Notes: generated by a model from the letters alone, not told the origin. A stretch of 64,000 bases of DNA from Heptranchias perlo (GCF_035084215.1 NW_027138407.1:1612001-1676000); one strand, 5' to 3'. Positions 1,486 to 64,000 are shown, counted from the stretch's first letter. A program made the numbers and translations.

Positions 1486-1491
1486 GAGTAA

Positions 1492-4925: not shown

Positions 4926-5248
4926 AGGCAAATCTAATGTTCAATCCCAAAAGGCAATAACAAGAAAGGAGACAGAAGGACAATGAGTGACTTTGGATAG
5001 AAACCTATCTCTGTTTGCAGTTCGTGCTGAGAATGTGGAAAAGGCTCAGTGTCACATTCAGGGTATGGAAATCTCAGTGTGTACTGACACCTGATCTACT
5101 GCAGGGTGGGACTGGGGACCAGGGTCTGTAATAGTATAATGGCGGTGGGGGGGGGGGGGGGACAGGGGATGGAAATCTCAGTGATTACTGATCGATGGAA
5201 AGTTGTCAGGCTGTGATGACGTAGTGGGACGCACTGCCCACCCAATCC

Positions 5249-6552
5249 CCCATCAGAGAGGGGAGAACTTAACCCCGCCTTCTGGGGCTGGATCTGACCC
5301 CAGGTCCCAGAACAGGAGAGGCCAGTGTCTGACCCGCATCCGCACCCAGACCCCCATCAGAGAGGGGAGACCTTCACCCCTCTGCCTGGAGCTGGATTTG
5401 ACCCCAGGTCCCAGAGGGTGAAAGGCCAGTGTCTGACCCACATCTCCACCCAGACCCCATCAGAGAGGGGAGACCTTCACCCCTCTGTCTGGGGCTGGAT
5501 TTGACCCCAGGTCCCAGAGGGTGAAAGGCCAGTGTCTGACCCACATCTCCACCCAGTCCTCCATCAGAGAGGGGAGACCTTCACCCCTCTGTCTGGGGCT
5601 GGATTTGACCCCAGGTCCCAGAGGGAGAAAGGCCAGTATCTGACCCACATCTCCACCCAGTCCTCCATCAGAGAGGGGAGACCTTCACCCCTCTGTCTGG
5701 GGCTGGATTTGACCCCAGGTCCCAGAGGGAGAAAGGCCAGTGTCTGACCCACATCTCCACCCAGTCCTCCATCAGAGAGGGGAGACCTTCACCCCTCTGT
5801 CTGGGGCTGGATTTGACCCCAGGTCCCAGAGGGTGAAAGGCCAGTGTCTGACCCACATCTCCACCCAGTCCTCCATCAGAGAGGGGAGACCTTCACCCCT
5901 CTGTCTGGGGCTGGATTTGACCCCAGGTCCCAGAGGGAGAAAGGCCAGTGTCTGACCCACATCTCCACCCAGTCCTCCATCAGAGAGGGGAGACCTTCAC
6001 CCCTCTGTCTGGGGCTGGATTTGACCCCAGGTCCCAGAGGGAGAAAGGCCAGTGTCTGACCCACATCTCCACCCAGTCCTCCATCAGAGAGGGGAGACCT
6101 TCACCCCTCTGTCTGGGGCTGGATTTGACCCCAGGTCCCAGAGGGAGAAAGGCCAGTGTCTGACCCACATCTCCACCCAGTCCTCCATCAGAGAGGGGAG
6201 ACCTTCACCCCTCTGTCTGGGGCTGGATTTGACCCCAGGTCCCAGAGGGAGAAAGGCCAGTGTCTGACCCACATCTCCACCCAGTCCTCCATCAGAGAGG
6301 GGAGACCTTCACCCCTCTGTCTGGGGCTGGATTTGACCCCAGGTCCCAGAGGGAGAAAGGCCAGTGTCTGACCCACATCTCCACCCAGTCCTCCATCAGA
6401 GAGGGGAGACCTTCACCCCTCTGTCTGGGGCTGGATTTGACCCCAGGTCCCAGAGGGAGAAAGGCCAGTGTCTGACCCACATCTCCACCCAGTCCTCCAT
6501 CAGAGAGGGGAGACCTTCACCCCTCTGTCTGGGGCTGGATTTGACCCCAGGT
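5249..6552 (-). repeat. 104-bp tandem repeat (~12.5 units), resembling a tRNA-derived SINE head on the minus strand
   Basis: 104-bp period seen in the ORF track (5564, 5668, 5772...); minus strand reads cactggcctttctccctctgggacctggggtcaaatccagcccc with a B-box-like GGGTCAAATCC. Confidence 0.9.
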
Positions 6553-6649
6553 CTCCAGAGGTGAATGGACAATATACCACCCATCCCAACAATGCTGGAA
6601 TTACATTGAGATTCCCATCAGGAGTCCCATCGAATCGGGGTGGAGGGAG

Positions 6650-6939
6650 GAGCCTGAGCAGCCCATGTCACGGAGGAGCAGAGCAATTACACCAACTGCA
6701 GCTCAGCATCTATGAAAGGTCGTTGATCCGAGCAGCTGCTTCTACCAGTTGGAAGGTGGGTGAAGGACTCCCTGAAACTTCTCCCTTCTCGCTTCTTCTT
6801 CTACTCGAGCCGACTCTCCACAATTAAACCGGGCTCTTCCCGAGAGTCCACACCGACAGTCCCAGACTCCGGCACGGTCTACGGGAAAAGATCCAATCGC
6901 TTGATTCCAAAACACCGAGACTGAGAGGGAGAGAGACAG
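6650..6939 (+). other. Putative non-coding 5' UTR exon of the GPCR gene (start approximate)
   Basis: Perfect donor CAG|GTGAGT at 6939/6940 (20857/8 and 34919/20 in the other copies) after non-repetitive sequence; matching acceptor tccatttacag| at 11215 upstream of the GPCR ATG. Confidence 0.5.
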
Positions 6940-7158
6940 GTGAGTGGATCTTTGAGAAGTTGAAGAGGCAGGGCCGGTTTGGATGGAGGTAATGTCACTG
7001 TTAGTGATAGAGAACGGGGATGGGTGAGTAGAGAGTGGGGAGAGAGGAATAGAGAGTGGGGAGAGGTGCGTAGAGAGTGGGGATGGGTGCAGAGAGTGGG
7101 GTTAGATGAGTAGAGATTGAGGATGGTGAGCTGCTTTGGAACTGAGGGCCGTTGAGGG

Positions 7159-8036
7159 GGGACTGAGAGACATCAGTCAGTGTCCAGATATCTTCCTGAG
7201 AGACAGGGACTGAGAGACAACAGTCAGTGTACAGGTATCTCCCTGAGGGAGAGGGACTGAGATGCACCAGTCAGTGTACAGATATCACCCTGAGAGAGAG
7301 GGACTGAGATACACCAGTCAGTGTACAGGTATCTCCCTGAGGGAGAGGGACTGAGAGACACCAGTCAGTGTACAGATATCTCCCTGAGAGAGAGGGACTG
7401 AGGGACACCAGTCATTGTACAGATATCTCACTGAGAGAGAGGGACTGAGAGACACCAGTCAGGGTACAGATATCACCCTGAGGGAGAGGGACTGAGAGAC
7501 ACCAGTCAGTGTACAGATATCTCCCTGAGGGAGAGGGACTGAGAGACACCAGTCAGTGTACAGATATCAACCTGAGAGAGAGGGACTGAGAGACACCAGT
7601 CAGTGTACAGATATCAACCTGAGAGAGAGGGACTGAGAGACACCAGTCAGTGTACAGATATCACCCTGAGAGAGAGGGACTGAGAGACACCAGTCAGTGT
7701 ACAGATATCTCCCTGAGAGAGAGAGACTGAGAGACACCAGTCAGTGTACAGATATCACCCTGAGGGAGAGGGAAATGAGAAACACCAGTCATTGTACAGA
7801 TATCACCCTGAGAGAGAGGGACTGAGAGTCACCAGTCAGTGTACAGATATCACCCTGAGGGAGAGGGACTGAGAGTCACCAGTCAGTGTACAGATATCAC
7901 CCTGAGAGAGAGGGACTGAGAGACACCAGTCAGTGTACAGATATCACCCTGAGAGAGAGGGACTGAGAGTCACCAGTCAGTGTACAGATATCACCCTGAG
8001 AGAGACGGACTGTGAGATACCAGTCATTGAACAGAT
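7159..8036 (+). repeat. 47-bp minisatellite (~18-19 units)
   Basis: Tandem gggactgagagacaccagtcagtgtacagatatcaccctgagagaga. Confidence 0.95.
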
Positions 8037-8041
8037 AGTTC

Positions 8042-11000
8042 TTTAGGGAAGGAAACCTGCCGTCCTTACCCGGTCTGGCCTTTTTGTGACTCCAGACCCA
8101 CAGCAATGTGGTTGATTCTTATTTGCCCTCTGAAATGGCCTAGCAAGCCAATCAGTTGTAAAATCTCGCTACGAAAAGTCATAATAAGAATAAAACCGGG
8201 CGGACCACCCGGCATCGGACCACTAGGCACAAGACATGACAACGGCAAACCACGCCCAGTCGACCCTGCAAGGTCCTCCTTACTAACATCTGGGGACTTG
8301 TGCCAAAATTGGGAGAGCTGTCCCACAGACTAGTCAAGCAACAGCCTGACATAGCCATACTCACAGAATCATATCTTTCAGCCAACATCCCAGACTCTTT
8401 CATTACCATCCCTGGGTATGTCCTGTCCCACTGGCAGGACAGACCCACCAGAGGTGGCGGTACAGTGATATACAGTCAGGAGGGAGTGGCCCTGGGAGTC
8501 CTCAACATTGGCTCTGGACCCCATGAAATCTCATGGCATCAGGTAAAACATGGGCAAGGAAACCTCCTGCTGATTACCACCGACCGTCCTCCCTCAGCTG
8601 ATGAATCAGTCCTCCTCCATGTTGAGCACCACTTGGAGGAAGAACTGAGGGTAGCAAGGGCACAAAATGTACTCTGGGTGGGGGACTTCAATGTCCATCA
8701 CCAAGAGTGGCTCGGTAGCACCACTACTGACCGAGCTGGCCGAGTCCTGAAGGACATAGCTGCTAGACTGGGCCTGCGGCAGGTGGTGAGCGAACCAACA
8801 CGAGGGAAAAACTTACTTGATCTCGTCCTCACCAATCTACCTGTCGCAAATGCATCTGTCCATGACAGTATTGGTAGGAGTGACCACCACACAGTCCTCA
8901 TGGAGATGAAGTCCGTCTTCGCACTGAGGACACCATCCAACGTGTTGTGTGGCACTACCACCATGCTAAATGGGATAGATTCAGAACAGATCTAGCAGCT
9001 CAAAATTGGGCATCCATGAGGCGCTGTGTGCCATCAGCAGCAGCAGAATTGTATTCCACCACAATCTGTAACCTCATGGCCCGGCATATTCCTCACTCTA
9101 CCATGACCAACAAGCCAGGAGATCAACCCTGGTTCAATGAGGAGTGTAGAAGAGCATGCCAGGAGCAGCACCAGGTGTACTTAAAAATGAGGTACCAACC
9201 TGGTGAAGCTACAACTCAGGACTACATGCATGCTAAACAGCAGAAGCAACATGCTATAGACAGAGCTAAGCGATTCCACAACCAACGGATCAGATCAAAG
9301 CTCTGCAGCCATGCCACATCCAGTCGTGAATGGTGGTGGACAATTAAACAACTAACAGGAGGAGGAGGCTCTGCAAACATCCCCATCCTCAATGATGGTG
9401 GAGTCCAGCACGTGAGTGCAAAAGACAAGGCTGAAGCGTTTGCAACGATCTTCAGCCAGAAATGCCGAGTGGATGATCCATCTCGGCCTCCTCCCGATAT
9501 CCCCACCGTCACGGAAGCCAGTCTTCGGCCAATTCGATTCCCTCTACGTGATATCAACAAACGGCTGAGTGCACTGGATACTGCAAAGGCGATGGGCCCC
9601 GACAACATCCCAGCTGTAGTGCTGAAGACTTGTGCTCCAGAACTAGCTGCGCCTCTAGCCAAGCTGTTCCAGTACAGCTACAACACTGGCATCTACCCGA
9701 CAATGTGGAAAATTGCCCAGGTATGTCCTGTCCACAAAAAGCAGGACAAATCCAATCCGGCCAATTACCGCCCCATCAGTCTACTCTCAATCATGAGCAA
9801 AGTGATGGAAGGTGTCATCAACAGTGCTATCAAGCGGCACTTACTCACCAATAACCTGCTCACCGATGCTCAGTTTGGGTTCCGCCAGGACCACTCGGCT
9901 CCAGATCTCATTACAGCCTTGGTCCAAACATGGACAAAAGAGCTGAATTCCAGAGGTGAGGTGAGAGTGACTGCCCTTGACATCAAGGCAGCATTTGACC
10001 GAGTGTGGCACCAAGGAGCCCTTGTAAAATTGAAGTCAACGGGAATCAGGGGGAAAACTCTCCAGTGGCTGGAGTCATACCTAGCACAAAGGAAGATGGT
10101 AGTGGTTGTTGGAGGCCAATCATCTCAGCCCCAGGACATTGCTGCAGGAGTTCCTCAAGGCAGTGTCCTAGGCCCAACCATCTTCAGCTGCTTCATCAAT
10201 GACCTTCCCTCCAACATCAGGTCAGAAATGGCGATGTTCGCTGATGATTGCACAGTGTTCAGTTCCATTCGCAACCCCTCAAATAATGAAGCAGTCCGAG
10301 CCCACATGCAGCAAGACCTGGACAACATCCAGGCTTGGGCTCATAAGTGGCAATTAACATTCGCGCCAGATAAGTGCCAGGCAATGACCATCTCCAACAA
10401 GAGAGAGTCTAACCACCTCCCCTTGACATTCAACGGCATTACCATCGCCGAATCCCTCAGCATCAACATCCTGGGGGTTACCATTGACCAGAAACTTAAC
10501 TGGACCAGCCATATAAATACTGTGGCGACAAGGGCAGGTCGGAGGCTGGGTATTCTGTGGCGAGTGACTCACCTCCTGACTCCCCAAAGCCTTTCCACCA
10601 TCTACAAGGCACAAGTCAGGAGTGTGATGGAATACTCTCCACTTGCTTGGATGAGTGCAGCTCCAACAACACTCAAGAAGCTCGATACCATCCAAGATAA
10701 AGCAGCCCGCTTGATTGGCACCCAATCCACCACCCTAAACATTCACTCCCTTCACCACCGGCGCACTGTGACTGCAGTGTGTACCATCCACAGGATGCAC
10801 TGCAGCAACTCGCCAAGGCTTCTTCAACAGCACCTCCCAAACCCGCGACCTCTACCACCTAGAAGGACAAGAGCATCAGGCACATGGGAACAACACCACC
10901 TGCACGTTCCCCTCCAAGTCACAAACCATCCCGACTTGGAAATATATCGGCCGTTCCTTCATTGTCGCTGGGTCAAAATCCTGGAACTCCCTTCCTAACA

Positions 11001-11141
11001 GCACTGTGGGAAAACCTTCACCACACGGACTGCAGCGGCTCAAGAAGGCGGCTCACCACCACCTTCTCAAGGGGCGACTAGGGATGGGCAATAAATGCTG
11101 GCCTCGCCAGCGACGCCCACATCCCGTGAACGAATAAAGAA
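8042..11141 (+). mobile_element. Near full-length LINE family A (APE endonuclease + RT), frameshifted, lacking the tRNA-like head
   Basis: EN motifs NIWGL, LTES, GDFN, SDH (ORF 8300-8995); RT motifs ALDIKAAFDRVWH, GVPQGSVLGP, FADD (ORF 8947-10998); 1-nt deletion near 8912; possible 5-bp TSD agttc at 8037/11142. Confidence 0.95.
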
Positions 11142-11475
11142 AGTTCACTTTCTAATATTTTGGATCACATTGTTTTGAATATTTAATAACTGTATTGATA
11201 TCTGTCCATTTACAGGCTTCAGAGTCCTACGTGATCTCTGCAATTCTGCATCCTGGCACCGCAGCAATCTCTTGGGCCCATTGGTTTCCACAGGTTTCAG
11301 AGAAGAAGCTCACCCTGTCTGAACCCATGAGATAGGATTAACGTGTTGGAGAGCCAACTGAGACCTTCAAAAACCAATAATCTGACAGGGCGGTCTCAAC
11401 TGTTGTTGAACAATATCGGATCTCATTCCCCGACATTGTTCATCCGTTGCTCTGTATTGTTTGGCATAACACCAA

Positions 11476-25536: not shown

Positions 25537-26526
25537 ATGGCCACTTTTGTGGGCTGGAATGCAACAGTCACCGAATCCTGGTTGGAGATCAATTCAACCA
25601 TTCAGGCTGGAAATGTAACTCTTGGGCCCTCGATGGAAAGCACTTTTGAAGCCAGTTTCATGAGGCAATTGTTCTTCCTTCCCATTATCAATAGCCCGAT
25701 CCTTCTGTCCGGCATTATTGGGAACTCAATTGCACTGTGGCACATCGTACGATTGAAGAAGGTCTCATCACCAACTGATGTCCTCCTGCTTGACTTGATC
25801 ATCATTGACCTCTTCGTCATCCTGTCTTCTACAATTGAAATTGTGCAATACACCCTACAATATCGCTCAGTGAAGTTTCTCGGTGATCTCTGTTTTATCC
25901 TGAGTATAATCAACCTTTACGGCATCCCACCCTTCATGACCTGCATTGCCATTGACCAATACATCGCGGTTGTCCACCCCATCAGGTCTCATTCCTGGAG
26001 AAGGCCTCGATACTATGTTGGCCTTTCCATCGCAACTTGGCTCATCGTGTTTTCCCTGAGTCTGGGGCATTTTTTCTTCACAAAAGGCACGTTAAAGGGC
26101 CCACTTTCATGCAAGGCTTTGGTTTCACTCTGGTCAGGTAGCCCAGTGCTTCACCTCTGCTCCGAAGTGGTCACATTTTTCGTCCCAATCGTGATCCTGT
26201 TGGCCTGCTATGCCCTGACAGCGAAGAAGATGATCGAAGTGGGAGCTGGGAAGGAATCCATGGAGCTGATGAAGAAGAAAGTGCTGAAGACCATTTGGGC
26301 AATCTTGGCTCTCCTCCTTTTCTGCTTTGCCCCATTTCACATCATTGAACTTTCTTTCGTGCTGAAGAACCTGTTGAGTCCCGAGTACAAAATCTCAATG
26401 TGGTATGTTTGTAATATTCGGCTGTATACCTGGACCCTCACTTTCCTCAGCATTATCCTCAACCCCCTGCTCTACATCTTCAGGTCCCAGAACTTTCAGT
26501 GGAGGCCATGTAGCTGCTGTGTGTAA
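25537..26526 (+). CDS. Class A orphan GPCR, copy 2, 329 aa
   Basis: Intact ORF; differs from copy 1 at D8N, C105Y, S110R, V177G, D188G, R202S. Confidence 0.95.
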   Translation: MATFVGWNATVTESWLEINSTIQAGNVTLGPSMESTFEASFMRQLFFLPIINSPILLSGIIGNSIALWHIVRLKKVSSPTDVLLLDLIIIDLFVILSSTIEIVQYTLQYRSVKFLGDLCFILSIINLYGIPPFMTCIAIDQYIAVVHPIRSHSWRRPRYYVGLSIATWLIVFSLSLGHFFFTKGTLKGPLSCKALVSLWSGSPVLHLCSEVVTFFVPIVILLACYALTAKKMIEVGAGKESMELMKKKVLKTIWAILALLLFCFAPFHIIELSFVLKNLLSPEYKISMWYVCNIRLYTWTLTFLSIILNPLLYIFRSQNFQWRPCSCCV

Positions 26527-28240: not shown

Positions 28241-28798
28241 TCATGCCTTTCCTGTTTTACAAACCTCACCTCCTGCTGTCACCAATTTTGTTCACACTTT
28301 TCTCTTTGCATTTCCCAGTCTAAATTGAAAGGGCAATACTTCCCATTCAATGAACCCAACTCTGTCGCCATCTTGTGTATATATGTCAAAAACTTAGATT
28401 CGTCAACTGACCGTGGGTGACACGCAGAACAATTTACCAATTAATATAAAAAGGCAGGAGGAACCCTCGGAGCACATTGACTACATGGCTGGTGACATGG
28501 GTTAAATTTCCTGAGACTCCAACCCACCATTGGAGCTTCCCATGCAGTTGGCAGAGGGAACATCTAATATGAGACTCAATTATTTACAGATGTTACACGA
28601 GAAGACCCTAAAATTTAGAGCATTAGGGTGGATGGGGGGTGCAGAAGGAAGACTGAAGTCTTGCAGGGAGGGGAATGGTTGGGATTTGGCGTGGGGACTT
28701 GATTTTTGCAAAGTTTCCTCCCGTTTTCCTAAATTGTGAAATTTTGACTGGGTGGAGCGGGTACTTGTGTTCACTCCCTTGCATCATGCTGTGGCAGC

Positions 28799-29140
28799 GG
28801 GATTAGTTTGGGATTGATACAGGGCTATGGGGAGAGAGCGGGGCAGTGGGATTAGTTTGGCATTGATACAGGGCTATGGGGAGAGAGCGGGGCAGTGGGA
28901 TTAGTTTGGCATTGATACAGGGCTATGGGGAGGGAGTGGGGCAGTGGGATTAGTTTGGGATTGATACAGGGCTATGGGGAGAGAGTGGGGCAGTGGGATT
29001 AGTTTGGGATTGATACAGGGCTATGGGGAGAGAGCGGGGCAGTGGGATTAGTTTGGGATTGATACAGGGCTATGGGGAGAGAATGGGGCAGTGGGATTAG
29101 TTTGGGGATTCATCCAGTGCTATGGGGAGAGAATGGGGCA
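28799..29140 (+). repeat. 49-50 bp minisatellite (~7 units)
   Basis: Same unit as 290-730. Confidence 0.95.
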
Positions 29141-29884
29141 GGTTCACACTAGCGACAACACAGCAACCAGCAGTTCGGAGGTTTATGCTTTGGTTTGTGT
29201 CAGTTAACTTCTACTTGCTGCAGATTCTCTTTCTTTACACTCAGCTATGTTCAGAATTAACAATTAATGAATTAATTGCTTCTTCAAGGAGAAACTCAAA
29301 AAAATACCTGTCACTGTACCCCCACTTATTCGTGACAAGTTAGTAATTGGCCAATTTCTTTCTTAATGGCCGCAGGAGAAATCCAATTCCCATTGTTACA
29401 ATACTCATAATTTCTGGGATCCAATCACCAACTTGTCCTTTTGGGTTTTGGGTGGGGGAATGGAATGGGGAGAACTATGGAAAGATAGATCAGCATATTA
29501 TTGATGGGCATGACAGGTGGAAAGGGTACATAAGAACATCAGGACATAAGAAATGATAGCAGGAGTAGGCCATACGGCCCCTCGGGCCTGCTCCACCATT
29601 CAATCAGATCATGGCTGATCTTCCACCTCAACTCCACTTTCCCACCCGGTCCCCATATCCCTTGATTCCCCTCGAGTCTAAAAATCCTAATTGCTTGCTG
29701 TACCAGCATGCTAACCTTTTCTGTCTCTTATGCGCGGTCACCCAAATCTCTCTGAACACCAACAATTAATCATATTCTGTTTTTCTGTTCTTCCTACCAA
29801 AGTAAATAACCTCACATTTCCCCACATTATACTCCATCTGCCACCTTCTTGCCCTCTGACTTAACATGTCTAGTGGGAGAGTAA

Positions 29885-39215: not shown

Positions 39216-39549
39216 AGTTCACTTTCTAATATTTTGGATCACATTGTTTTGAATATTTAATAACTGTATTGATATCTGTCCATTTACAGGCTTCAGAGTC
39301 CTACGTGATCTCTGCAATTCTGCATCCTGGCACCGCAGCAATCTCTTGGGCCCATTGGTTTCCACAGGTTTCAGAGAAGAAGCTCACCCTGTCTGAACCC
39401 ATGAGATAGGATTAACGTGTTGGAGAGCCAACTGAGACCTTCAAAAACCAATAATCTGACAGGGCGGTCTCAACTGTTGTTGAACAATATCGGATCTCAT
39501 TCCCCGACATTGTTCATCCGTTGCTCTGTATTGTTTGGCATAACACCAA

Positions 39550-51808: not shown

Positions 51809-52477
51809 CCGGGTTAAATTTCTTGCACTAGGGCCCCCAGGAATCAGTACTGGGGCCTTAGCTTTTCATTAGATTTACAGTGGACTAAATTTGCTGACGA
51901 CACTAAGTTAGGAGGCACAGTAAATAGTGCAGATGGGAGCAGAAAGTTACAAAGGGACATTGAGAGATTAAGTGGGGCAGATGGAGTTCAGTGTGGGAAA
52001 GTGTGAGGTCGTCCACTTTGGACCTAAGAAAGATCGATCAGGGTATATCCTAAATGGCGAGAAGCTCAGAACTGTGGAGGAGCAGAGAGATTCAGGGGTC
52101 CAAGTACAGAAATCAGTAAAAGCCAGTGGACAGAGACAAAAAATAATTCAAAAAGCGAATGGAATGTTGGCCTTTATCTCAGAGGGCTGGAATACAAAGG
52201 GTGGAAATTATGGACAGAGCTCTGGTTAGACCCCATCTGGAGCACGGTGTTCAGTTCTGGGCACCGCACCTCAGGAAGGAGATATTGGCCTTGGAGGGGG
52301 TGCAGGACAGATTCACCAGAATAACACCAGGGCTAAAAGGGTTAAATTATGAGGACAGGTTGCACAGACTCGGCTTGTAATCCCTTGACTATAGAAGATT
52401 AATGAATGATCCAATTGAGATGTTTAAGATGATTAAAGGAGCTGATTGGGTAGATGGAGAGAAACTATTTCCCCTGT

Positions 52478-55400
52478 TTTTTTTTATTCGTTCATGGGAT
52501 GTGGGCGTCGCTGGCGAGGCCGGCATTTATTGCCCATCCCTAATTGCCCCTTGAGAAGGTGGTGGTGAGCCGCCTTCTTGAACCGCTGCAGTCCGTGTGG
52601 TGAAGGTTCTCCCACAGTGCTGTTAGGAAGGGAGTTCCAGGATTTTGACCCAGTGACGATGAAGGAATGGCTGATATATTTCCAAGTCGGGATGGTGTGT
52701 GACTTGGAGGGTAACGTGCAGGTGGTGTTGTTCCCATGTGCCTGCTGCCCTCGTCCTTCTAGGTGGTAGAGGTCGTGGGTTTGGGAGGTGCCGTCAAAGA
52801 AGCCTTGACGAGTTGCTGCAGTGCATCCTGTGGATGGTACACACTGCAGCCACAGTGCGCCAGTGGTGAAGGGAGTGAATGTTTAGGGTGGTGGATGGGG
52901 TGCCAATCAAGCGGGCTGCTTTGTCCTGGATGGTGTCGAGCTTCTTGAGTGTTGTTGGAGCTGCACTCATCCTGGCAAGTGGAGTGTATTCCATTACATT
53001 CCTGACTTGTGCCTTGTAGATGGTGGAAAGGCTTTGGGGAGTCAGGAGGTGAGTCACTCGCTGCAGAATACCCAGCCTCTGACCTGCTCTTGTAGCCACA
53101 GTATTTATATGGCTGGTCCAGTTAAGGTTCTGGTCAATGGTAACCCCCAGGATATTGATGGTGGGGGATTCGACGATGGTAATGCCGTTGAATGTCAAGG
53201 GGAGGTGGTTAGACTCTCTCCTGTTCGAGATGGTCATTGCCTGGCACTTGTCTGGCGCGAATGTTACTTGCCACTTATCAGTCCAAGCCTGGATGTTGTC
53301 CAGGTCTTGCTGCATGCGGGCTCGGACTGCTTCATTACCTGAGGGGTTGTGAATGGAACTGAACACTGTGCAATCGTCAGTGAACGTCCTCATTTCTGAC
53401 CTTATGATAGAGGGAAGGTCATTGATGAAGCAGCTGAAAATGTTTGGGCCTAGGACACTGCCCTGAGGAACTCCTGCAGCAATGTCCTGGGGCTGAGATG
53501 ATTGGCCTCCAACAACCACTACCATCTTCCTTTGTGCTAGGTATGACTCCAGCCACTGGAGAGTTTTCCCCCTGATTCCCATTGACTTCAATTTTACTCG
53601 GGCTCCTTGGTGCCACACTCGGTCAAATGCTGCCTTGATGTCAAGGGCAGTCACTCTCACCTCACCTCTGGAATTCAGCTCTTTTGTCCATGTTTGGACC
53701 AGGGCTGTAATGAGGTCTGGGGCCGAGTGGTCCTGGCGGAACCCAAACTGAACACCGGTGAGCAGGTTATTGGTGAGTAAGTGCTGCTTGATAGCACTGT
53801 CGACGACACCTTCCATCACTTTGCTGATGATTGAGAGTAGACTGATGGGGCGGTAATTGGCCGGATTGGATTTGTCCTGCTTTTTGTGGACAGGATATAC
53901 CTGGGCAATTTTCCACATTGTCGGGTAGATGCCAGTGTTGTAGCTGTACTGGAACAGTTTGGCGAGAGGCACAGCTAGTTCTGGAGCACAAGTCTTCAGC
54001 ACTACAGCTGGGATGTTGTTAGGGCCCATAGCCTTTGCTGTATCCAGTGCACTCAGCCGTTTCTTGATATCACGTGGAGTGAATCGAATTGGCTGAAGAC
54101 TGGCTTCTGTGATGGTGGGGATATCGGGAGGAGGCCGAGATGGATCATCCACTCGGCATTTCTGGCTGAAGATGGTTGCAAACACTTCAGCCTTGTCTTT
54201 TGCACTCACGTGCTGGACTCCGCCATCATTGAGGATGGGGATGTTTACAGAGCCTCCTCCTCCCATTAGTTGTTTAACTGTCCACCACCATTCACGACTG
54301 GATGTGGCAGAAGTGCAGAGCTTTGTTTGTGGAATCGCTTAGCTCTGTCTATAGCATGTTGCTTCCGCTGTTTAGCATGCATGTAGTCCTGAGTTGTAGC
54401 TTCACCAGGTTGGCACCTCATTTTTAGGTACGCCTGGTGCTGCTCCTGGCATGCTCTTCTACATTCCTTATTGAACCAGGGTTGATCCCCCTGGCTTGTT
54501 GGTAATGGTTGAGTGAGGAATATGCCGGGCCATGAGGTTACAGATTGTGCTGGAATACAATTCTGCTGCTGCTGATGGCCCACAGCACCTCCTGATGGCC
54601 CACAGCACCTCCTGGAGGCCCAGTTTTGAGCTGCTAGATCTGTTCTGAATCTATCCCATTTAGCACGGTGGTAGTGCCACACAACACGTTGGATGGTGTC
54701 CTCAGTGTCGAAGACAGGATTTCATCTCCATGAGGACTGTGCGGTGGTCACTCCTACCAATACTGTCATGGACAGATGCATTTGCGACAGGTAGATTGGT
54801 GAGGACGAGGTCAAGTCAGTTTTTCCCTCACCACCTGCCGCAGGCCCAGTCTGGCAGCTATGTCCTTCAGGACTCGGCCAGTAGTGGTGCTACTGAGCCA
54901 CTCTTGGTGATGGACATTGAAGTCCCCCACCCAGAGTACATTTTGTGCCCTTGCTACCCTCAGTGCTTCCTCCAAGTGGTGCTCAACATGGAGGAGGACT
55001 GATTCATCAGCTGAGGGAGGGCGGTAGGTGGGAATCAGCAGGAGGTTTCCTTGCCCATGTTTGAGCTGATGCCTTGAGATCTGGAGTCAATGTGTCGGAC
55101 TCCCAGGGCCACTCCCTCCTGACTGTATATCACTGTACCGCCACCTCTGGTGGGTCTGTCCCGCCAGTGGGACAGGACGGTAATGGAAGAGTCTGGGACG
55201 TTGGCTGAAAGGTACGATTCTGTGAGTGTGGCTGTGTCAGGCTGTTGCTTGACTAGTCTGTGGGACAGCTCTCCCAATTTTGGCACAGGTCCCCAGATGT
55301 TCGCGAGGAGGACTTTGCAGGGTCGACTGGGCTTGGCTTGCCTTTGTTGTGTCCGGTGCCTAGTGGTCTGTCTGGTTTTATTCTTATCATGACTTTTTTT

Positions 55401-55706
55401 AAGTGAGATTTTACAACTGGAGTGGCTTGCTGGACCATTTCAGAATCAACCACATTGCTGTGGGTCTGGAGTCACATCTCGGACTCCTTCCACGAAAGGG
55501 ACATTAATGAACCAGATGGGTTTTTACGACAATCCGGTCGTTTCATGGCTACCATTACTGATACTCGTATTTTAATTCCAGATTTTATTTAATTAATTAA
55601 ATTTAAATTCCCTAGCTGCCATGGTGGAATTAGAACTCATAATTCTGGATTATTGGTTCAGGCCTCTGGATTACTAGTTCAGTAACATAACCACTATGCT
55701 ACCGTA
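52478..55706 (-). mobile_element. Full-length LINE family A with tRNA-like Pol III head and one degraded EN-RT ORF
   Basis: Poly(A) at 52478; RT ORF 52794-54266; EN remnants 54730-55300; A-box 55691-55701 and B-box 55626-55638; TSD ccctgt at 52472-52477 and 55707-55712. Confidence 0.92.
55626..55701 (-). promoter_or_regulatory. Internal Pol III type-2 promoter (A box TAGCATAGTGG, B-box-like GAGTTCTAATTCC)
   Basis: A box fits TRGCNNAGYGG a few nt from the element's 5' end; B box resembles GGTTCRANNCC, 52 nt downstream. Confidence 0.7.
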
Positions 55707-56074
55707 CCCTGTGGGGGGAATCCAGAACAAGGGGGCAGAACCTTAAACTTAGAGCCAGGCCGTTCAGGGGTGAAGTCAGGAATCACTTCTTCACACAAAG
55801 GGGAGTGGAAATCTGGAACTCTCTCCCCACAAAAAGCTGTTGAGGCTGGGGGTCAATTGAAAATTTCAGTACTGAGATTGATCGATATTTGTCAGGCGAG
55901 GGTATTGAGGGTTACGGAACCGAGGCGGGTAGATGGAGTTAAGATACAGATCAGCCATGATCTAATTGAATGACGGAACAGACTCGAGGGGCTGAATGGC
56001 CTACTCTTGTTCCTATGTTTTTCTGTTTCTATCTATCTATCGATCTGTCTAATTATCTATTTATACCTGCATTT

Positions 56075-56474
56075 CTCCTCCCTCCGTTCGTTGTGGATGC
56101 GATTTCTGATGCAAATCTCAATGTAACTCCAGCATTGTTGGGATGGGTGATACATTGTCCACTCACCTCTGGGACCTTGGATCAAATCCAGCCCCAGACA
56201 GAGGGGGGTGAAGGTCTCCTCTCACTGATGGCGGACTGGGTGGGGCATTCGTTCACCCTCTGTAATTACAGAGTGGCTGATTTACATAGACCAGGTGTCA
56301 GGACACACTGGGATTTCCAACTCCTGACCCACTCCCCCCCAGACCCTGGTCCCCAGTCCCACCCTGCAGTAGACCAGGTATCAGTACACACTGAGATTTC
56401 CATCTCTTGACCCACTCCCCCCCCTCCCCCCCAGACCCTGGTCCCCAGTCCCACCCTGCAGTAGATCAGGTGTC
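56075..56474 (-). repeat. Diverged inverted paralog of the 5085-6650 region with a single 104-bp monomer
   Basis: ctcaatgtaactccagcattgttgggatgggtg matches the reverse complement of 6577-6610; then one monomer, then ccctggtccccagtcccaccctgcagtagatcagg (reverse complement of ~5090-5124). Confidence 0.8.
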
Positions 56475-56478
56475 AGAA

Positions 56479-57137
56479 TGACGATACCGGATTCTTTACT
56501 CTTAGTCTGGTTCAGCAAAAACTGAAAGCGAATACACTTGAAAGTTTTAACACAATTTATTAGCTGCAGCTGACCCTATCTATAGAATTGATTTCAACTC
56601 TTGACAGAGTCTGGTCAATCTCATAGAACAGGCAAATTACACAGTCAAAGTTCACACAATTATACATTTTCAGAGTGGGGAGGGACATGAGTAGCAAGGG
56701 GTTAAAACCAATCATAAACTGAGTCTGGGCAAGCCATACTAACTGACATAATGACCGACCACTCACAGGTGATACATGTTCATACGTAGGTCACAGGAAA
56801 GGGAGTCTCACTTATCTCAGGCCTGGGATGTTTTTCGACCTTGTCCGAAATAAGGATCCATTCATTAGGTAGCTGCAAAACAACACTCCCTACACCTGCT
56901 TACCTCAGAATTCAGCTTATCATATCGCTTTGCTTGATTCATAATAAAGCATACATTTTCATACAGGAAATTAATAACATAAACGAATGATCAAGGATAA
57001 ACTCATTTGAAAAGCTCATTGTTCTAATTCTAGCTAGCAAAATGGGCCACTTATATTAACCCTTGGTTTACCATACTGCCATTTTGTTATGGAGGCATCT
57101 TATTGAGCTACTGAAAGCTTACTACATATGCATTTCA
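56479..57137 (-). mobile_element. Putative solo LTR (659 bp)
   Basis: TG...CA termini; 4-bp TSD agaa/agta interrupting gtgtcagtacacactgag; minus-strand AATAAA at 56556-56561 with a TATA-like tataga upstream. Confidence 0.65.
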
Positions 57138-57286
57138 AGTACACACTGAGATTTCCATACCCTGAAAGTGACACTGAGCTTTTTCCACATTCTCAGCACG
57201 AACTGCAAACAGAGATAGGTTTCTATCCAAAGTCACTCATTGTCCTTCTGTCTCCTTTCTTGTTATTGCCTTTTGGGATTGAACAT
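57138..57286 (-). repeat. Inverted copy of 4937-5085 (same local repeat also at 47339-47495 and 48635-49070)
   Basis: cactgagatttccataccctgaa...ctatccaaagtcactcattgtcc...gggattgaacat is the reverse complement of the unit sequence. Confidence 0.85.
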
Positions 57287-57521
57287 NNNNNNNNNNNNNN
57301 NNNNNNNNNNNNNNNNNNNNNNNNNNNNNNNNNNNNNNNNNNNNNNNNNNNNNNNNNNNNNNNNNNNNNNNNNNNNNNNNNNNNNNNNNNNNNNNNNNNN
57401 NNNNNNNNNNNNNNNNNNNNNNNNNNNNNNNNNNNNNNNNNNNNNNNNNNNNNNNNNNNNNNNNNNNNNNNNNNNNNNNNNNNNNNNNNNNNNNNNNNNN
57501 NNNNNNNNNNNNNNNNNNNNN

Positions 57522-58715
57522 ATAAGGGTAACGCAGTAGATGTGATATATTTGGATTTTCAAAATGCCTTCGATAAGGTACCACATTGTAGACTCATGAC
57601 TAAGGTCAGAGCACGTGGAGCCAGGGGGACAGGTAGCAGAATGGATAGCAAGCTGGCTACAAAACAGAAAACAGAGAATAGGGGTTAAGGGTAGTCGCTC
57701 AGTTTGGCAAAAGGTGGGAAGTGGTGTTCCACAGGGATTGGTGCTGGGACCACTGTTGTTCACAATTTACAACAACGGATTTGGGAATCAGAAGTACAAT
57801 TTCAAAATTTGCGGACAACACCAAATTGGGGGGTGTAGTTAATACAGAGGAAGAGTGTATCAAAATGCAAGAGGGCATTAATAAACTTGCAGAATGGGAG
57901 TGTAATTGATAAATGAATTTCAATATAGATAAATGTGAGGAGGGGCATTTTGGTAGGAAGAATAAGGAAGTCACAAACTGCTTGGATAATAAGAGTCTAA
58001 ACAGGATAGGGGAGCAAACAGGTTTAGGGGGTACAGATACACAAATCACTAAAAGTAGCGACGCAGGTTAATAAGGCCATAAAAAAGGCAAACAAAACAC
58101 TGGGGTTCATTTCTGGAGGGATAGAATTGAAAAGCAGAGATGTTATGTTAAACTTGTACAGAACCTTGGTTAGACCACACTTGGAGCACTGTGAACAGTT
58201 CTGGTGTCCATTATTATAAAAAGGATATAGAGGCACTGGAGAAGGTGCAAAAAAGATTCACAAGGATGATACCAGAACTGAGAGGATATCCTTATCAGGA
58301 AAGGCTGAACAGGCTGGGGCTCTTTTCTCCAGAAAAGAGAAGGCTGAGGGAGTGACCTGATCGAGGTCTTTAAGATTATGAAAGGGTTCGATAGGGTAGA
58401 CGTAGAGGAGATGTTTCCACTTGTGGGGGAGTCCAAAACTAGAGGTCATGAGCATAAAATAGTCAGTAATAAATCCAATCGGGAATTCAGGAGACACTTC
58501 TTTCCCCAGAGAGCGGTGAGAATGTGGAACTCGCTCCCACAAGGAGTAGTCGAGGTGAATAGTGGAGATGGATTTAAGGGGAAGCTCGATAAACACAGGA
58601 GGGAGAAAGGAATAGAAGGAGATGCTGAGATGAAGTAGGGAGGGAGGAGGCTCGTGTGGAGCATAAACACCGGCACGGACTAGATGGGCCGAATGGCCTG
58701 TTTCTGTGCTGTAGT
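57522..58715 (+). mobile_element. CR1-type LINE, RT half to 3' end, degenerate
   Basis: VDVIYLDFQNAFDKVPH, GVPQGLVLGP, KFADNTKLGG, WNSLPQ; tail gatgggccgaatggcctgtttctgtgctgt. Confidence 0.9.
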
Positions 58716-59118
58716 TTCGATTAACTTGATGCATCGAACTATCGATCGATCTCTATGTGTCTGTAACCCTGCAGTGCTGCCTCAGTAACACCAGGTGGCA
58801 ATGGTGTACCTAGGTCTGATGCAGCAAGTTGACAAACTGAAGGAAAAAGTTAAGCCTGGTAATCAGGGTGCCCCACATTTAACCCTTTCATTGTTACTCC
58901 CAACTCAAGTCCCATCGTCCCCCGAAGGCGCTGACTCGTGCAGGGGTGTGGTATCGTCAGGACTCCCTGTCACCCTCTTGCCTCTGCTATCCCAAGTGGC
59001 CCCGTTCTTTATGTGTGAACCCAGACAGTGTGTCAGAGGGACATTCGAGCATGAGGGGCATCACAGACGAGCCTCGATCCTGTCCTCCCATGACCTCGAC
59101 GCCTTTGCCAGCAGGAGA

Positions 59119-62050
59119 CCACACCTGTCAATCACTCTCCCACACCTGTCAATCACTCTCCCACACCTGTCAATCACTCTCCCACACCTGTCAATCACTC
59201 CCCCACACCTGTCAATCCCTCCCACACCTGTCAATCACACACCCCCACATCTGTCAATCACTCCCCCACACCTGTCAATCACTCTCCCACACCTGTCAAT
59301 CCCTCCCCCCCACCTGTCAATCACTCCCCCACACCTGTCAATCACTCCCCACACCTGTCAATCACTCCCCCACACCTGTCAATCCCTCCCACACCTGTCA
59401 ATCCCTCCCCCACACCTGTCAATCACTCCCCCACACCTGTCAATCACTCCCCACACCTGTCAATCACTTCCCACACCTGTCAATCCCTCCCCCACACCTG
59501 TCAATCACGACCCCACACCTGTCAATCCCTCCCACACCTGTCAATCACTCGCCACACCTGTCAATCACTCCCCCACACCTGTCAATCACGCCCCCACGCC
59601 TGTCAATCACTCCCCACACCTGTCAATCACTCCCCACACCTGTCAATCACTCCCCACACCTGTCAATCACTACCCCACACCTGTCAATCACTCTCCCACA
59701 CCTGTCAATCACTTCCCACACCTGTCAATCACTCCCCCACAACTGTCAATCACTCCTCCACACCTGTCAATCACTCTCCCACACCTGTCAATCACTTCCC
59801 ACAACTGTCAATCACTCCCCCACACCTGTCAATCACTCCCCCACCTGCCAATCACTCCCCCACACCTGTCAATCACTCCCTCACCTGTCTATCACTCCCT
59901 CACCTGTCAATCACTTCCCACACCTGTCAATCACTTCCCACACCTGTCAATCACTCCCACACACCTGTCAATCACTCCGCCACACATGTCAATCACTCCC
60001 TCACCTGTCAATCACTCCCTCACCTGTCAATCACTCCCCCACCTGTCAATCACTTCCCACACCTGTCAATCACTCCCTCACCTGTCAATCACTCCCTCAC
60101 CTGTCAATCACTCCCCCACACCTGTCAATCACTCCCCCACCTGTCAATCACTCCCTCACCTGTCAATCACTTCCCACACCTGTCAATCACTCCCTCACCT
60201 GTTAATCACTCCCACACACCTGTCAATCACTCCCCCACACCTGTCAATCACTCCCACACACCTGTCAATCACTCCCTCACCTGTCAATCACTCCCCCACC
60301 TGTCAATCACTCCCCCACCTGTCAATCACTCCCTCACCTGTCAATCACTCCCACACCTGTCAATCACTCCCCCACACCTGTCAATCATTCCCCACCTGTC
60401 AATCACTCCCACACCTGTCAATCACTCCCTCACCTGTCAATCACTCCCACACACCTGTCAATCACTTCCCACACCTGTCAATCACTCCCCCACCTGTCAA
60501 TCACTTCCCACACCTGGCAATCACTCCCTCACCTGTCAATCAATCCCCCACACCTGTCAATCACTTCCCACACCTGTCAATCACTTCCCACACATGTCAA
60601 TCACTTCCCACACCTGGCAATCATTCCCTCACCTGTCAATCACTTCCCACACCTGTCAATCACTCCCCCACACCTGTCAATCACTCCCTCACCTGTCAAT
60701 CACTCCCCCACACCTGTCAATCACTTCCCACACCTGTCAATCACTTCCCACACCTGTCAATCACTCCCTCACCTGTCAATCACTCCCTCAACTGTCAATC
60801 ACTTCCCACACCTGTCAATCACTCCCCCACCTGTCAATCACTCCCTCACCTGTCAATCACTTCCCACACCTGTCAATCACTCCCACACCTGTCAATCACT
60901 CCCCCACCTGTCAATCACTCCCACACCTGTCAATCACTTCCCACACCTGTCAATCACTCCCTCACCTGTCAATCACTTCCCACACCTGTCAATCACTGCC
61001 CCACACCTGTCAATCACTCCCCCACCTGTCAATCACTCCCTCACCTGTCAATCACTTCCCACACCTGTCAATCACTTCCCACACCTGTCAATCACTCCCT
61101 CACCTGTCAATCACTCCATCACCTGTCAATCACTCCCACACCTGTCAATCACTCCCACACACCTGTCAATCACTTCCCACACCTGTCAATCACTCCCCCA
61201 CCTGTCAATCACTTCCCACACCTGGCAATCACTCCCTCACCTGTCAATCACTCCCCCACACCTGTCAATCACTTCCCACACCTGTCAATCACTTCCCACA
61301 CCTGTCAAATCACTTCCCACACCTGGCAATCACTCCCTCACCTGTCAATCACTTCCCACACCTGTCAATCACTCCCCCACACCTGTCAATCACTCCCTCA
61401 CCTGTCTATCACTCCCTCACCTGTCAATCACTCCCCACACCTGTCAATCACTTCCCACACCTGTCAATCACTTCCCACACCTGTCAATCACTCCCTCACC
61501 TGTCAATCCCTCCCTCAACTGTCAATCACTTCCACACCTGTCAATCACTCCCCCACCTGTCAATCACTCCCTCACCTGTCAATCACTTCCACACCTGTCA
61601 ATCACTCCCACACCTGTCAATCACTCCCCCACCTGTCAATCACTCCCACACCTGTCAATCACTTCCCACACCTGTCAATCACTCCCTCACCTGTCAATCA
61701 CTTCCCACACCTGTCAATCACTTCCCACACCTGTCAATCACTGCCCCACACCTGTCAATCACTCCCCCACCTGTCAATCACTCCCCCACCTGTCAATCAC
61801 TTCCCACACCTGTCAATCACTCCCTCACCTGTCAATCACTCCCCCACCTGTCAATCACTCCCTCACCTGTCAATCACTTCCCACACCTGTCAATCACTCC
61901 CTCACCTGTCAATCACTCCCACACCTGTCAATCACTTCCCTCACCTGTCAATCACTCCCTCACCTGTCAATCACTTCCCACACCTGTCAATCACTCCCCC
62001 ACCTGTCAATCACTCCCTCACCTGTCAATCACTCCCTCACCTGTCAATCA
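59119..62050. repeat. ~20-22 bp minisatellite (cacacctgtcaatcactccc), roughly 140 units
   Basis: Near-invariant core cacctgtcaatcac with a variable C-rich spacer. Confidence 0.97.
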
Positions 62051-62227
62051 CAGCTGGTTGCCATGACTTGCAATTCTCGCTCAATCCCCGCCCCCTCCAG
62101 CGGTCACCACGCCCCCAGGAGCACGTGCTCCTAGTCCCCGTTTCCCATTGGCCCGGGCCCGGCCTATCAGTGGGCGCGCTCGTTCGGGCCGCGTCATCAA
62201 GGCGGAAGCGGCAGGTGAGAAAAGGGG
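62051..62227 (+). promoter_or_regulatory. CpG-rich promoter and probable non-coding first exon ending in a splice donor
   Basis: RFX-like GTTGCCATGAC 62057, GC box CCCCGCCCCC 62086, CCACGCCCC 62107, palindromic E-box aggagCACGTGctcct 62117-62132, ATTGG 62147, ETS CGGAAG 62203, donor CAG|GTGAGA 62214/62215. Confidence 0.7.
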
Positions 62228-62357: not shown

Positions 62358-64000
62358 GAGATAGGGGGATAGAGAGAGAGAGAGAGAGATAGGGGGATAG
62401 AGAGAGAGAGAGAGAGAGATAGGGGGATAGAGAGNNNNNNNNNNNNNNNNNNNNNNNNNNNNNNNNNNNNNNNNNNNNNNNNNNNNNNNNNNNNNNNNNN
62501 NNNNNNNNNNNNNNNNNNNNNNNNNNNNNNNNNNNNNNNNNNNNNNNNNNNNNNNNNNNNNNNNNNNNNNNNNNNNNNNNNNNNNNNNNNNNNNNNNNNN
62601 NNNNNNNNNNNNNNNNNNNNNNNNNNNNNNNNNNNNNNNNNNNNNNNNNNNNNNNNNNNNNNNNNNNNNNNGAGAGATAGGGGGATAGAGAGAGAGAGAG
62701 AGATAGGGGGATAGAGAGAGAGAGAGAGATAGGGGGATAGAGAGAGAGAGAGAGATAGGGGGATAGAGAGAGAGAGAGAGATAGGGGGATAGAGAGAGAG
62801 AGAGAGATAGGGGGATAGAGAGAGAGAGAGAGATAGGGGGATAGAGAGAGAGAGAGAGATAGGGGGATAGAGAGAGAGAGAGAGATAGGGGGATAGAGAG
62901 AGAGAGAGAGATAGGGGGATAGAGAGAGAGAGAGATAGGGGGATAGAGAGAGAGAGAGAGATAGGGGGATAGAGAGAGAGAGAGAGATAGGGGGATAGAG
63001 AGAGAGAGAGAGAGATAGGGGGATAGAGAGAGAGAGAGAGAGATAGGGGGATAGAGAGAGAGGAGAGAGATAGGGGGATAGAGAGAGAGAGAGAGATAGG
63101 GGGATAGAGAGAGAGAGAGAGATAGGGGGGATAGAGAGAGAGAGAGAGATAGGGGGATAGAGAGAGAGAGAGAGATAGGGGGATAGAGAGAGAGAGAGAG
63201 ATAGGGGGATAGAGAGAGAGAGAGAGATAGGGGGATAGAGAGAGAGAGAGAGATAGGGGGATAGAGAGAGAGAGAGAGATAGGGGGATAGAGAGAGAGAG
63301 AGAGATAGGGGGATAGAGAGAGAGAGAGAGATAGGGGGATAGAGAGAGAGAGAGAGATAGGGGGATAGAGAGAGAGAGAGAGATAGGGGGAATAGAGAGA
63401 GAGAGAGAGATAGGGGGATAGAGAGAGAGAGAGAGATAGGGGGATAGAGAGAGAGAGAGAGATAGGGGGATAGAGAGAGAGAGAGAGATAGGGGGATAGA
63501 GAGAGAGAGAGAGATAGGGGGATAGAGAGAGAGAGAGAGATAGGGGGATAGAGAGAGAGAGAGAGATAGGGGGATAGAGAGAGAGAGAGAGATAGGGGGA
63601 TAGAGAGAGAGAGAGAGATAGGGGGATAGAGAGAGAGAGAGAGATAGGGGGATAGAGAGAGAGAGAGAGATAGGGGGATAGAGAGAGAGAGAGAGATAGG
63701 GGGATAGAGAGAGAGAGAGAGATAGGGGGATAGAGAGAGAGAGAGAGATAGGGGGATAGAGAGAGAGAGAGAGATAGGGGGATAGAGAGAGAGAGAGAGA
63801 TAGGGGGATAGAGAGAGAGAGAGAGATAGGGGGATAGAGAGAGAGAGAGAGATAGGGGGATAGAGAGAGAGAGAGAGATAGGGGGATAGAGAGAGAGAGA
63901 GAGATAGGGGGGATAGAGAGAGAGAGAGAGATAGGGGGATAGAGAGAGAGAGAGAGATAGGGGGATAGAGAGAGAGAGAGAGATAGGGGGATAGAGAGAG
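62358..64000 (+). repeat. Purine-rich 22-26 bp repeat (GA)n-TAGGGGGATA with N gaps
   Basis: gagagagagagatagggggata in tandem to the end of the window. Confidence 0.95.

What the first reader, a model, noticed from the sequence alone, without database searches (positions are those of the whole stretch)
59119..62227. About 140 tandem PBX/PREP-MEIS decamers (TGATTGACAG) directly upstream of a CpG promoter
Seen: the near-invariant core cacctgtcaatca reads TGATTGACAGGTG on the minus strand, while the spacer varies. The last unit abuts a compact promoter-like segment (X-box-like, GC boxes, CACGTG, CCAAT, ETS, splice donor). Known: TGATTGACAG is the consensus PBX-PREP1/MEIS site found in vertebrate promoters, often near CCAAT, and CAGGTG is an E2A/ZEB/Snail E-box. 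Inference: one proximal promoter element was amplified into a 2.9-kb array that could act as a length-variable enhancer or a TALE-factor sink.
Basis: partly seen in the sequence, partly recalled or inferred. Interest (0 to 1): 0.7.

Follow-up and report, generated by a model that had tools for sequence, protein, structure and literature searches.

The report
TALE-motif minisatellite beside shark promoter
A 2.9-kb tandem repeat in a shark genome packs 130 perfect copies of a textbook PBX-PREP binding site against a likely promoter; it is most likely a slippage-grown repeat with at most a local effect on the neighbouring gene, and nothing yet shows that it is bound or selected.

Summary
The array is real: 148 head-to-tail units of 18-23 bp (59119-62051), 130 with an exact TGATTGACAG, none elsewhere in the window. 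It abuts a 176-bp CpG-rich segment with promoter motifs and a consensus splice donor. The genome is most likely the shark Heptranchias perlo. The regulatory reading is only partly supported. The 10-bp motif is no more conserved than other stable unit positions (17/1470 vs 16/1176 changes, p=0.73); 'spacer' variation is mostly C-run slippage. The nearest promoter CCAAT lies 96 bp away, not at the canonical 11 bp. About 26% of the window is long tandem repeat. DNA contigs show the same repeat with two other flanks, and the same core seeds minisatellites at five unrelated loci in eukaryotic metagenome contigs, three beside splice junctions. A sink is implausible (130 sites against about 10,000 occupied in zebrafish). 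No RNA contig covered the segment, so start site, gene and direction remain unknown. Best reading: in-situ slippage expansion of one promoter-edge TALE site, with little or only local effect. The closest tested analogue, human homotypic-motif tandem repeats, is repressed by default. The recurring core across animals is the most novel lead, and it lacks a control.

The parts
59119..62051 (-). Minisatellite, 148 units of 18-23 bp; 130 exact TGATTGACAG (PBX-PREP DECA) and 140 CAGGTG E-boxes on the minus strand; only 5 CpG; variant units interspersed, with internal block duplications up to 134 bp
62041..62050 (-). Last intact DECA site, the inferred seed of the array; 96 bp from the promoter CCAAT
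   Evidence: seed status is inference
62052..62227 (.). CpG-rich promoter-like segment (16 CpG, GC 0.665), cut off by an N run; direction and gene unknown
62057..62065 (+). RFX X-box-like half site (label recalled)
   Evidence: single copy in the window
62086..62094 (+). GC box (Sp/KLF; label recalled)
   Evidence: single copy in the window
62107..62114 (+). KLF-like GC/GT box (label recalled)
62122..62127 (.). CACGTG E-box inside a 16-bp palindrome (62117-62132)
62147..62151 (-). CCAAT box (NF-Y consensus context; label recalled)
62203..62208 (+). ETS-like CGGAAG (label recalled)
62212..62219 (+). Consensus 5' splice donor, intron starting at 62215; one of only 4 MAG|GTRAG matches on the plus strand, the other 3 lying at one homologous place upstream of each GPCR copy; suggests a short non-coding first exon
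   Evidence: inference, no RNA
62358..64000 (+). GA-rich 26-30-bp tandem array with N runs, running off the window; putative intron 1, so the promoter-like segment is flanked by long arrays on both sides
57523..59118 (.). Distal flank: interspersed-repeat debris (matches to other repeat copies in the window); no gene found
   Evidence: LINE/SINE labels for this stretch are recalled

Best explanation
A minisatellite that grew in place, by replication slippage and unequal exchange, from a single PBX-PREP (DECA) site at the edge of a CpG promoter, in a genome region that turns many local sequences into tandem arrays. Shown: the array, its motif content, its contact with a promoter-like segment, the pattern of variation. 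Inferred: PBX-PREP dimers can bind the units (exact consensus, 19-21-bp spacing); binding is most likely where the array meets open promoter chromatin; the bulk is compact and adds little. Any effect is local, on the neighbouring start site, and the array is kept by repeat turnover, not by selection for the motif.
For: Array and motif counts. Substitutions are as rare outside the decamer as inside (17/1470 vs 16/1176, p=0.73), and length variation sits in the C-run. In all 6 arrays profiled, 78-100% of deviation falls in the top 20% of columns, so 'constant core, variable part' is generic here. 17 arrays of 250 bp or more fill 25.8% of the window, and three of them differ in copy number among 98-99% identical segmental copies; the 104-bp unit has single-copy relatives nearby. 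No abutting target-site duplication. Canonical DECA-CCAAT spacing absent. In zebrafish work only 1 of 7 DECA plus NF-Y elements drove a reporter in HEK293 cells (PMC6023610 section 12). [quoted passage not shown]
Against: The amplified unit is almost nothing but an exact TALE site plus an E-box, and sits flush against the promoter. The promoter end has 28 consecutive intact units against 4 at the far end, which fits selection near the promoter as well as recent growth there. Only 1 insertion falls in the decamer against more than 100 in or beside the C-run. Homogenised arrays give little power to detect selection. Other flanks in the same organism mean the unit could have come from elsewhere. 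Human minisatellite VNTRs are enriched at promoters and some track expression (PMC8096271 passages; 10.1101/2020.12.16.423078 abstract).
Confidence: 0.55

Rival explanations
1. A functional homotypic TALE cluster: the array loads many PBX-PREP dimers and sets the activity of the adjacent promoter in a length-dependent way, either as an enhancer or, by analogy with human PU.1 clusters, as an element repressed by default (MORC3/DAXX/H3.3, or ZEB/Snail on the overlapping E-boxes) that becomes strongly active when repression lifts.
For: 130 exact sites flush with the promoter; intact run at the promoter end. TALE factors occupy DECA sites before active marks appear and at less accessible chromatin (PMC6023610 passages). 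More than 15 SPI motifs trigger repression and 35 suffice for a repressed enhancer (PMC13373173 section 11). The array has only 5 CpG, so DNA methylation cannot easily silence it (inference). ZEB/Snail binding to CAGGTG is recalled.
Against: No motif-specific conservation; no DECA-CCAAT composite; DECA elements often not sufficient as enhancers; TALE motifs are not named in the main text of the MORC3 paper (0 hits for PBX, MEIS, TALE, PKNOX; its supplements were not read); most such human repeats had no effect on genes.
Confidence: 0.25
2. A member of a small dispersed minisatellite family whose core is a frequent seed for tandem repeats in animal genomes; this copy lies beside the promoter by chance or by transfer from another locus, and the promoter never depended on it.
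For: DNA contigs of the best-matching run carry the unit with a different 255-letter flank on one side and a different flank on the other; neither flank is in the window at up to 3 mismatches. 7 metagenome contigs, 5 distinct loci, have repeats with the same core but other unit lengths and spacers; 3 lie beside splice junctions of glutamate synthase, bromodomain and C2H2 zinc-finger exons.
Against: Only two foreign junctions were seen among 17 contigs laid. No target-site duplication. The last unit runs without a scar into the promoter motifs, and DECA, RFX, Sp and E-box factors co-occur at NF-Y promoters (PMC4889920 passages).
Confidence: 0.12
3. The promoter also fires on the minus strand, into the array, and what was amplified is an exon 1/intron 1 junction: each unit ends in CAG|GT, giving a run of U1-type donor sites on a divergent transcript that could extend or splice it.
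For: 140 units give CAG|GT on the minus strand and 33 match MAG|GTRAG, the only such matches on that strand in the window. CCAAT and GC boxes read forward on the minus strand. In L004 the related repeat begins exactly at the donor of a bromodomain exon.
Against: No host exon on the minus strand: of 120 minus-strand ORFs scanned (of 128 listed), only 3 hit Pfam, all LINE domains. The donor match follows automatically from the DECA plus E-box overlap. A good donor also exists on the plus strand.
Confidence: 0.05
4. A trans-acting sink that titrates PBX-PREP away from other targets.
For: Very high local density of exact sites. Drosophila Homothorax, a TALE factor, binds 1.688 satellites (PMC4368669 section 19).
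Against: 130 sites are 1.3% of the roughly 10,000 DECA-containing Prep peaks in zebrafish blastulae; base composition alone predicts about 2,060 exact decamers per Gb. In the fly case the factor promotes satellite transcription and is not described as titrated (abstract).
Confidence: 0.03

Closest known systems
MORC3-restricted tandem repeats with homotypic motif clusters, e.g. the IFNB1-MRE (PMC13373173; abstract and sections 11, 13, 15 read)
   Same: Tandem repeat whose unit carries one transcription-factor motif, amplified to dozens of copies; slippage proposed as the origin.
   Different: Motifs there are SPI/ETS, AP-1 and SP/KLF, up to 61 per cluster; the IFN element is intronic and conserved across mammals, with function shown. 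Here 130 TALE sites, flush with a promoter, no conservation or function shown.
Promoter-proximal minisatellite VNTRs that carry factor sites (PMC8096271 passages; 10.1101/2020.12.16.423078 abstract; INS, HRAS1 and CSTB examples partly recalled)
   Same: Unit of 10-60 bp, kilobase array, variant units interspersed, next to a CpG promoter.
   Different: Length polymorphism and expression effect are shown for those and untested here; I saw no TALE-site example in the listings.
DECA and DECA-CCAAT elements bound by PBX-PREP with NF-Y and Sp2 (PMC6023610, 10.1101/720102, 10.64898/2026.02.16.706105, PMC12065363; passages read)
   Same: Exact 10-bp DECA motif near a promoter with CCAAT and GC boxes.
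   Different: Known elements are single sites 10-12 bp from CCAAT; here 130 tandem sites, the nearest 96 bp from the promoter CCAAT and in reverse order.
Homothorax binding to Drosophila 1.688 satellites (PMC4368669; abstract and section 19 read)
   Same: A TALE homeodomain factor on tandem DNA.
   Different: Pericentromeric 260-361-bp units with 3-12 predicted sites each and a role in heterochromatin; here a short euchromatic-looking array with one exact site per 20 bp.

Membership tests
Minisatellite / VNTR | Head-to-tail units of about 10-60 bp over 0.1-20 kb with variant units | tested here: met
   148 units of 18-23 bp over 2.9 kb, 39 unit variants
Minisatellite / VNTR | Copy number differs between alleles or individuals | not testable with these tools
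   Only one sample holds the stretch and no contig spans it; neighbouring arrays do differ among segmental copies
DECA (PBX-PREP) site | Exact TGATTGACAG | tested here: met
   130 of 148 units; motif as given in PMC6023610
DECA (PBX-PREP) site | Occupancy by PBX and PREP/MEIS | not testable with these tools
   No binding data for this species at hand
DECA-CCAAT composite element | DECA followed by CCAAT at 10-12 bp | tested here: not met
   0 of 130 decamers have a same-strand CCAAT within 40 bp; promoter CCAAT is 96 bp from the last decamer; rule
MORC3-repressed element (MRE) | Tandem repeat with more than 15 homotypic motifs | tested here: met
   130 motifs; threshold
MORC3-repressed element (MRE) | Motif of a class reported there (SPI/ETS, AP-1, SP/KLF) | tested here: not met
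   Unit motif is TALE; 0 matches to the SP/KLF pattern tested; TALE terms absent from the paper's main text
MORC3-repressed element (MRE) | MORC3 binding, and gene activation on MORC3 loss | not testable with these tools
   Needs chromatin and perturbation data
CpG / NF-Y-type promoter (62052-62227) | CpG-rich, clustered core-promoter motifs, downstream donor | tested here: met
   (176 bp visible, shorter than the usual 200-bp island definition, recalled)
CpG / NF-Y-type promoter (62052-62227) | A mapped transcription start | tested here: inconclusive
   0 contigs laid from 3 of 3 putative RNA runs, and the DNA run also left the segment uncovered, so the blank says nothing
G-quadruplex minisatellite (INS-VNTR type, recalled) | Four G-runs with loops of 1-7 nt | tested here: not met
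   0 canonical motifs; one G-run per unit with about 15-nt loops

The most novel reading that the evidence does not exclude
The TALE decamer is a recurrent nucleus for minisatellite birth across animals: protein-bound or junction-like DECA sites at promoter edges and splice junctions repeatedly seed tandem expansion, and the longest arrays become TALE-loaded, default-repressed switches on neighbouring genes, for instance at zygotic genome activation. This shark array, with about twice as many motifs as the largest human cluster reported in the MORC3 study, would be the extreme case.
Probability: 0.13. Interest if true: 0.65.

Novelty: new variant of a known kind. Interest (0 to 1): 0.32.

Why it matters
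If only a neutral repeat, it is one more minisatellite in a repeat-rich shark region. If bound and active, it would extend homotypic motif-cluster repeats from ETS, AP-1 and SP/KLF motifs to TALE factors, which act at the start of zygotic transcription, and give a natural 1-to-130 dose series for how site number turns into activation or repression. If the same core really seeds repeats independently in distant animals more often than control words do, it would tie where minisatellites arise to transcription-factor sites, a testable rule for repeat birth.

Tried and rejected
No whole genome is held, so no genome-wide count. Rfam and ARAGORN: 0 hits in the window. The array's stop-free plus-strand frames are not a gene: no Pfam family above cutoff in 2 of 2 frames scanned, 0 homologues at E<=1e-10 among 8000 candidates, atlas hits all under 0.9. 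The tandem-core pattern found 0 matches in viral contigs and 0 in prokaryote genomes. No RNA holder listed and no RNA contig laid: no evidence on expression either way; the DNA run's lack of cover over 62054-62227 is likewise no finding. Summed contig depth was not used as a copy number. Hairpin or G-quadruplex mechanism rejected: 0 kcal/mol for 302 nt of the minus strand, less folded than all 100 shuffles; 0 canonical G4 motifs. Insertion with target-site duplication: only a non-abutting shared 7-mer in 40-bp flanks. A minus-strand host gene around the GPCR cluster: not found (ORFs of 52 aa or more in 731-14524 and 43970-59118 only; 8 of 128, all from the 104-bp array, left out). No control motif could be scanned in the metagenome collection, so the recurrence of the core has only a uniform-base estimate (3.7e-8 per 20-bp unit), which ignores that the motif is enriched in animal DNA. 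Literature: I saw no report of a DECA minisatellite in the listings (40 of 118; 25 of 76; 40 of 146; 2 of 2; 20 of 27; 7 of 7; 20 of 1468; 20 of 45; 15 of 18) and 68 (3 of 3); titles and abstract starts only, open-access library only. Earlier scan notes: nothing for this genome or these words; one unrelated phage note.

Full report
Observation. The array is real. Tandem Repeats Finder reports 59119-62051, period 19, 147.9 copies; anchoring on the core gives 148 units, 64 of 19 bp, 43 of 20, 39 of 21, one of 18 and one of 23. 130 of 148 units hold an exact TGATTGACAG on the minus strand, 124 the 13-mer with GTG, and 140 a CAGGTG; the decamer occurs nowhere else in the window. That this decamer is the PBX-PREP 'DECA' site is stated in PMC6023610 (passages) and 10.1101/720102 (passages). 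The last unit runs straight into 62052-62227, the most CpG-rich of 6210 tiles of that length, with X-box-like, GC-box, KLF-like, CACGTG, CCAAT, ETS and donor motifs (motif names recalled). All 7 classes match, against at most 5 in 5000 shuffles and 3 in 1341 other tiles, a test biased by choosing the classes after the fact. The donor at 62212 is one of four MAG|GTRAG matches on the plus strand; the other three sit upstream of the three GPCR copies. I put the odds that this is a true promoter at about 0.85 (judgement). An N run follows, then a GA-rich array to the end of the window, so the gene cannot be named.

Setting. A GPCR in the window is 100% identical over 87% of its length to a protein that NCBI names for Heptranchias perlo, and all 13 hits are from sharks and rays, so the window most likely comes from that shark. 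The first 44 kb are three 98-99% identical copies of a 14-kb unit. Seventeen arrays of 250 bp or more fill 25.8% of the window, three array families differ in copy number among the segmental copies, and the 104-bp unit has single-copy relatives nearby. Local DNA here often turns into tandem arrays. Higher tandem-repeat content on short chromosomes and chromosome ends of sharks is reported (10.1101/2022.10.17.512540, passages).

Is the motif selected? Against a 19-bp consensus, 18 of 19 columns are at least 94% constant (147 units, the last one left out). Substitutions are no rarer in the ten decamer columns than in eight other stable columns (17/1470 against 16/1176, Fisher p=0.73; the one variable column excluded). 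Length variation lies in and beside a C-run, where slippage is expected. In all six arrays profiled, 78-100% of deviation falls in the top fifth of columns, so a constant core with a variable part is generic. Against my reading: only one insertion falls inside the decamer; the promoter end has 28 consecutive intact units and the far end 4; and units in a homogenised array are not independent, so the test has little power. The geometry of the cooperative TALE/NF-Y/Sp2 element, DECA then CCAAT at about 11 bp (10.64898/2026.02.16.706105, abstract and passages; PMC12065363, passages), is absent: the gap is 96 bp and the order reversed. PBX3, RFX5, Sp and E-box factors do co-occur at NF-Y promoters (PMC4889920, passages), so one ancestral DECA at this promoter's edge is plausible, though inferred. 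I found no abutting target-site duplication.

Is the repeat unique to this promoter? No whole genome is held. Four DNA runs of one sample hold 0.34 of the sampled words, and no other organism was listed. Laying one DNA run and three putative RNA runs on 62014-62227 placed 17 DNA contigs, all on the repeat units, and 0 RNA contigs. Two loose ends join the unit to other DNA, one with 255 foreign letters; neither flank is in the window. So at least one more locus probably exists in that organism. A scan of the metagenome collection for two tandem cores found 7 contigs, 5 distinct loci. Their units are 13-71 bp with unrelated spacers. Three lie beside splice junctions of glutamate synthase (L006/L007), bromodomain (L004) and C2H2 zinc-finger (L001/L002; Pfam hits below cutoff) exons; L005 has no gene assigned; L003 sits among CCAAT boxes upstream of long ORFs. 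These are eukaryotic, and glutamate synthase points away from vertebrates (recalled), so the arrays arose independently of the shark one. The pattern fixed 29 bases, and a uniform model gives 3.7e-8 per 20-bp unit, but I could run no control word, and the motif is probably enriched in animal DNA. Viral contigs and prokaryote genomes gave 0 matches.

How it most likely works. Slippage and unequal exchange copied one promoter-edge DECA/E-box unit into 148 copies; internal block duplications up to 134 bp record this. PBX-PREP can probably bind the units, most likely at the promoter end (inferred). A large effect is uncertain. [quoted passage not shown] The closest tested analogue is the class of human tandem repeats with up to 61 homotypic motifs that MORC3 keeps closed: repression appears above 15 SPI motifs, and genes were activated next to only two such repeats (PMC13373173, abstract and sections 11, 13, 15). 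TALE factors are not named in its main text; its supplementary motif table, which I did not read, could list them. By that analogy a 130-site cluster is as likely to be silenced as to be an open enhancer. I give 0.55 to a near-neutral in-situ expansion, 0.25 to a functional length-dependent element, 0.12 to a dispersed family copy, 0.05 to a donor array on a divergent transcript (33 consensus donors on the minus strand; no minus-strand host exon among 120 ORFs) and 0.03 to a sink. The sink fails on numbers: 130 sites are 1.3% of about 10,000 DECA-containing Prep peaks in zebrafish, and chance alone gives about 2,060 exact decamers per Gb. Homothorax on fly satellites (PMC4368669, abstract and section 19) shows that TALE factors can sit on tandem DNA, in a different role. 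Coding, RNA-family, hairpin and G-quadruplex readings found no support.

Novelty. Promoter minisatellites that carry factor sites are a known kind (PMC8096271, passages; 10.1101/2020.12.16.423078, abstract), and two unchecked notes of this scan describe similar cases with other motifs. I saw no TALE-site example in ten literature searches (listings only; counts under Tried and rejected). It is a new variant by motif class and size, with no function shown: interest 0.32. The boldest reading left open is that the TALE decamer repeatedly nucleates minisatellites across animals and that the longest become default-repressed TALE switches (probability 0.13, interest 0.65).

Noticed in passing
window 731-43969: Three tandem copies of a unit of about 14 kb, 98-99% identical, each with a single-coding-exon rhodopsin-type GPCR (11470-12465, 25531-26526, 39544-40539), a near full-length LINE and four tandem arrays; relatives of this GPCR in the search are all from sharks and rays (13 hits, 46-59% identity apart from the own-species record). 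A young, lineage-specific receptor cluster.
   Followed up: partly
window 284-731, 14525-15071, 28793-29141, 42530-43969 and the 104-bp and 47-bp arrays: Minisatellite copy numbers differ among the near-identical segmental copies (49-50-bp unit: 9.1, 11.1, 7.1, 29.0; 104-bp: 12.7, 8.8, 8.8; 47-bp: 18.7, 21.7, 20.7), so arrays here change faster than their flanks.
   Followed up: partly
window 22943-25057: The LINE reverse-transcriptase frame is one 704-aa ORF in copies 1 and 3 but is split by a stop in copy 2 (129 + 574 aa).
   Followed up: no
L004:1-190 and 2928-2960; L006:1-110; L007:1670-2042; L001:300-650; L002:1189-1222; L005:1-190: Repeats with the same core lie in introns right at splice junctions, with TGATTGACAG on the gene's sense strand in 3 of 3 gene-assigned loci; L004 holds two copies of one composite unit 2.9 kb apart.
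   Followed up: partly
L003:1330-1420: Two 20-bp units with the core sit among CCAAT boxes about 450 bp upstream of long ORFs with no Pfam hit, in what looks like a DNA transposon (label is my impression).
   Followed up: no
window 47400-47500, 48680-49050, 56075-57286: Inverted remnants of the DNA that lies upstream of the GPCR gene, including single copies of the 104-bp unit that is a tandem array inside the segmental repeat.
   Followed up: no
window 58885-59118: The stretch next to the far end of the array resembles a shark Deu-domain SINE cut off at the array boundary; this is recalled and comes from no call.
   Followed up: no
Read laying, run X1, loose end at 62019: The foreign 255-letter flank joined to the repeat ends in GC-rich DNA with two CpG in 30 letters; it may be a second promoter-adjacent copy.
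   Followed up: no
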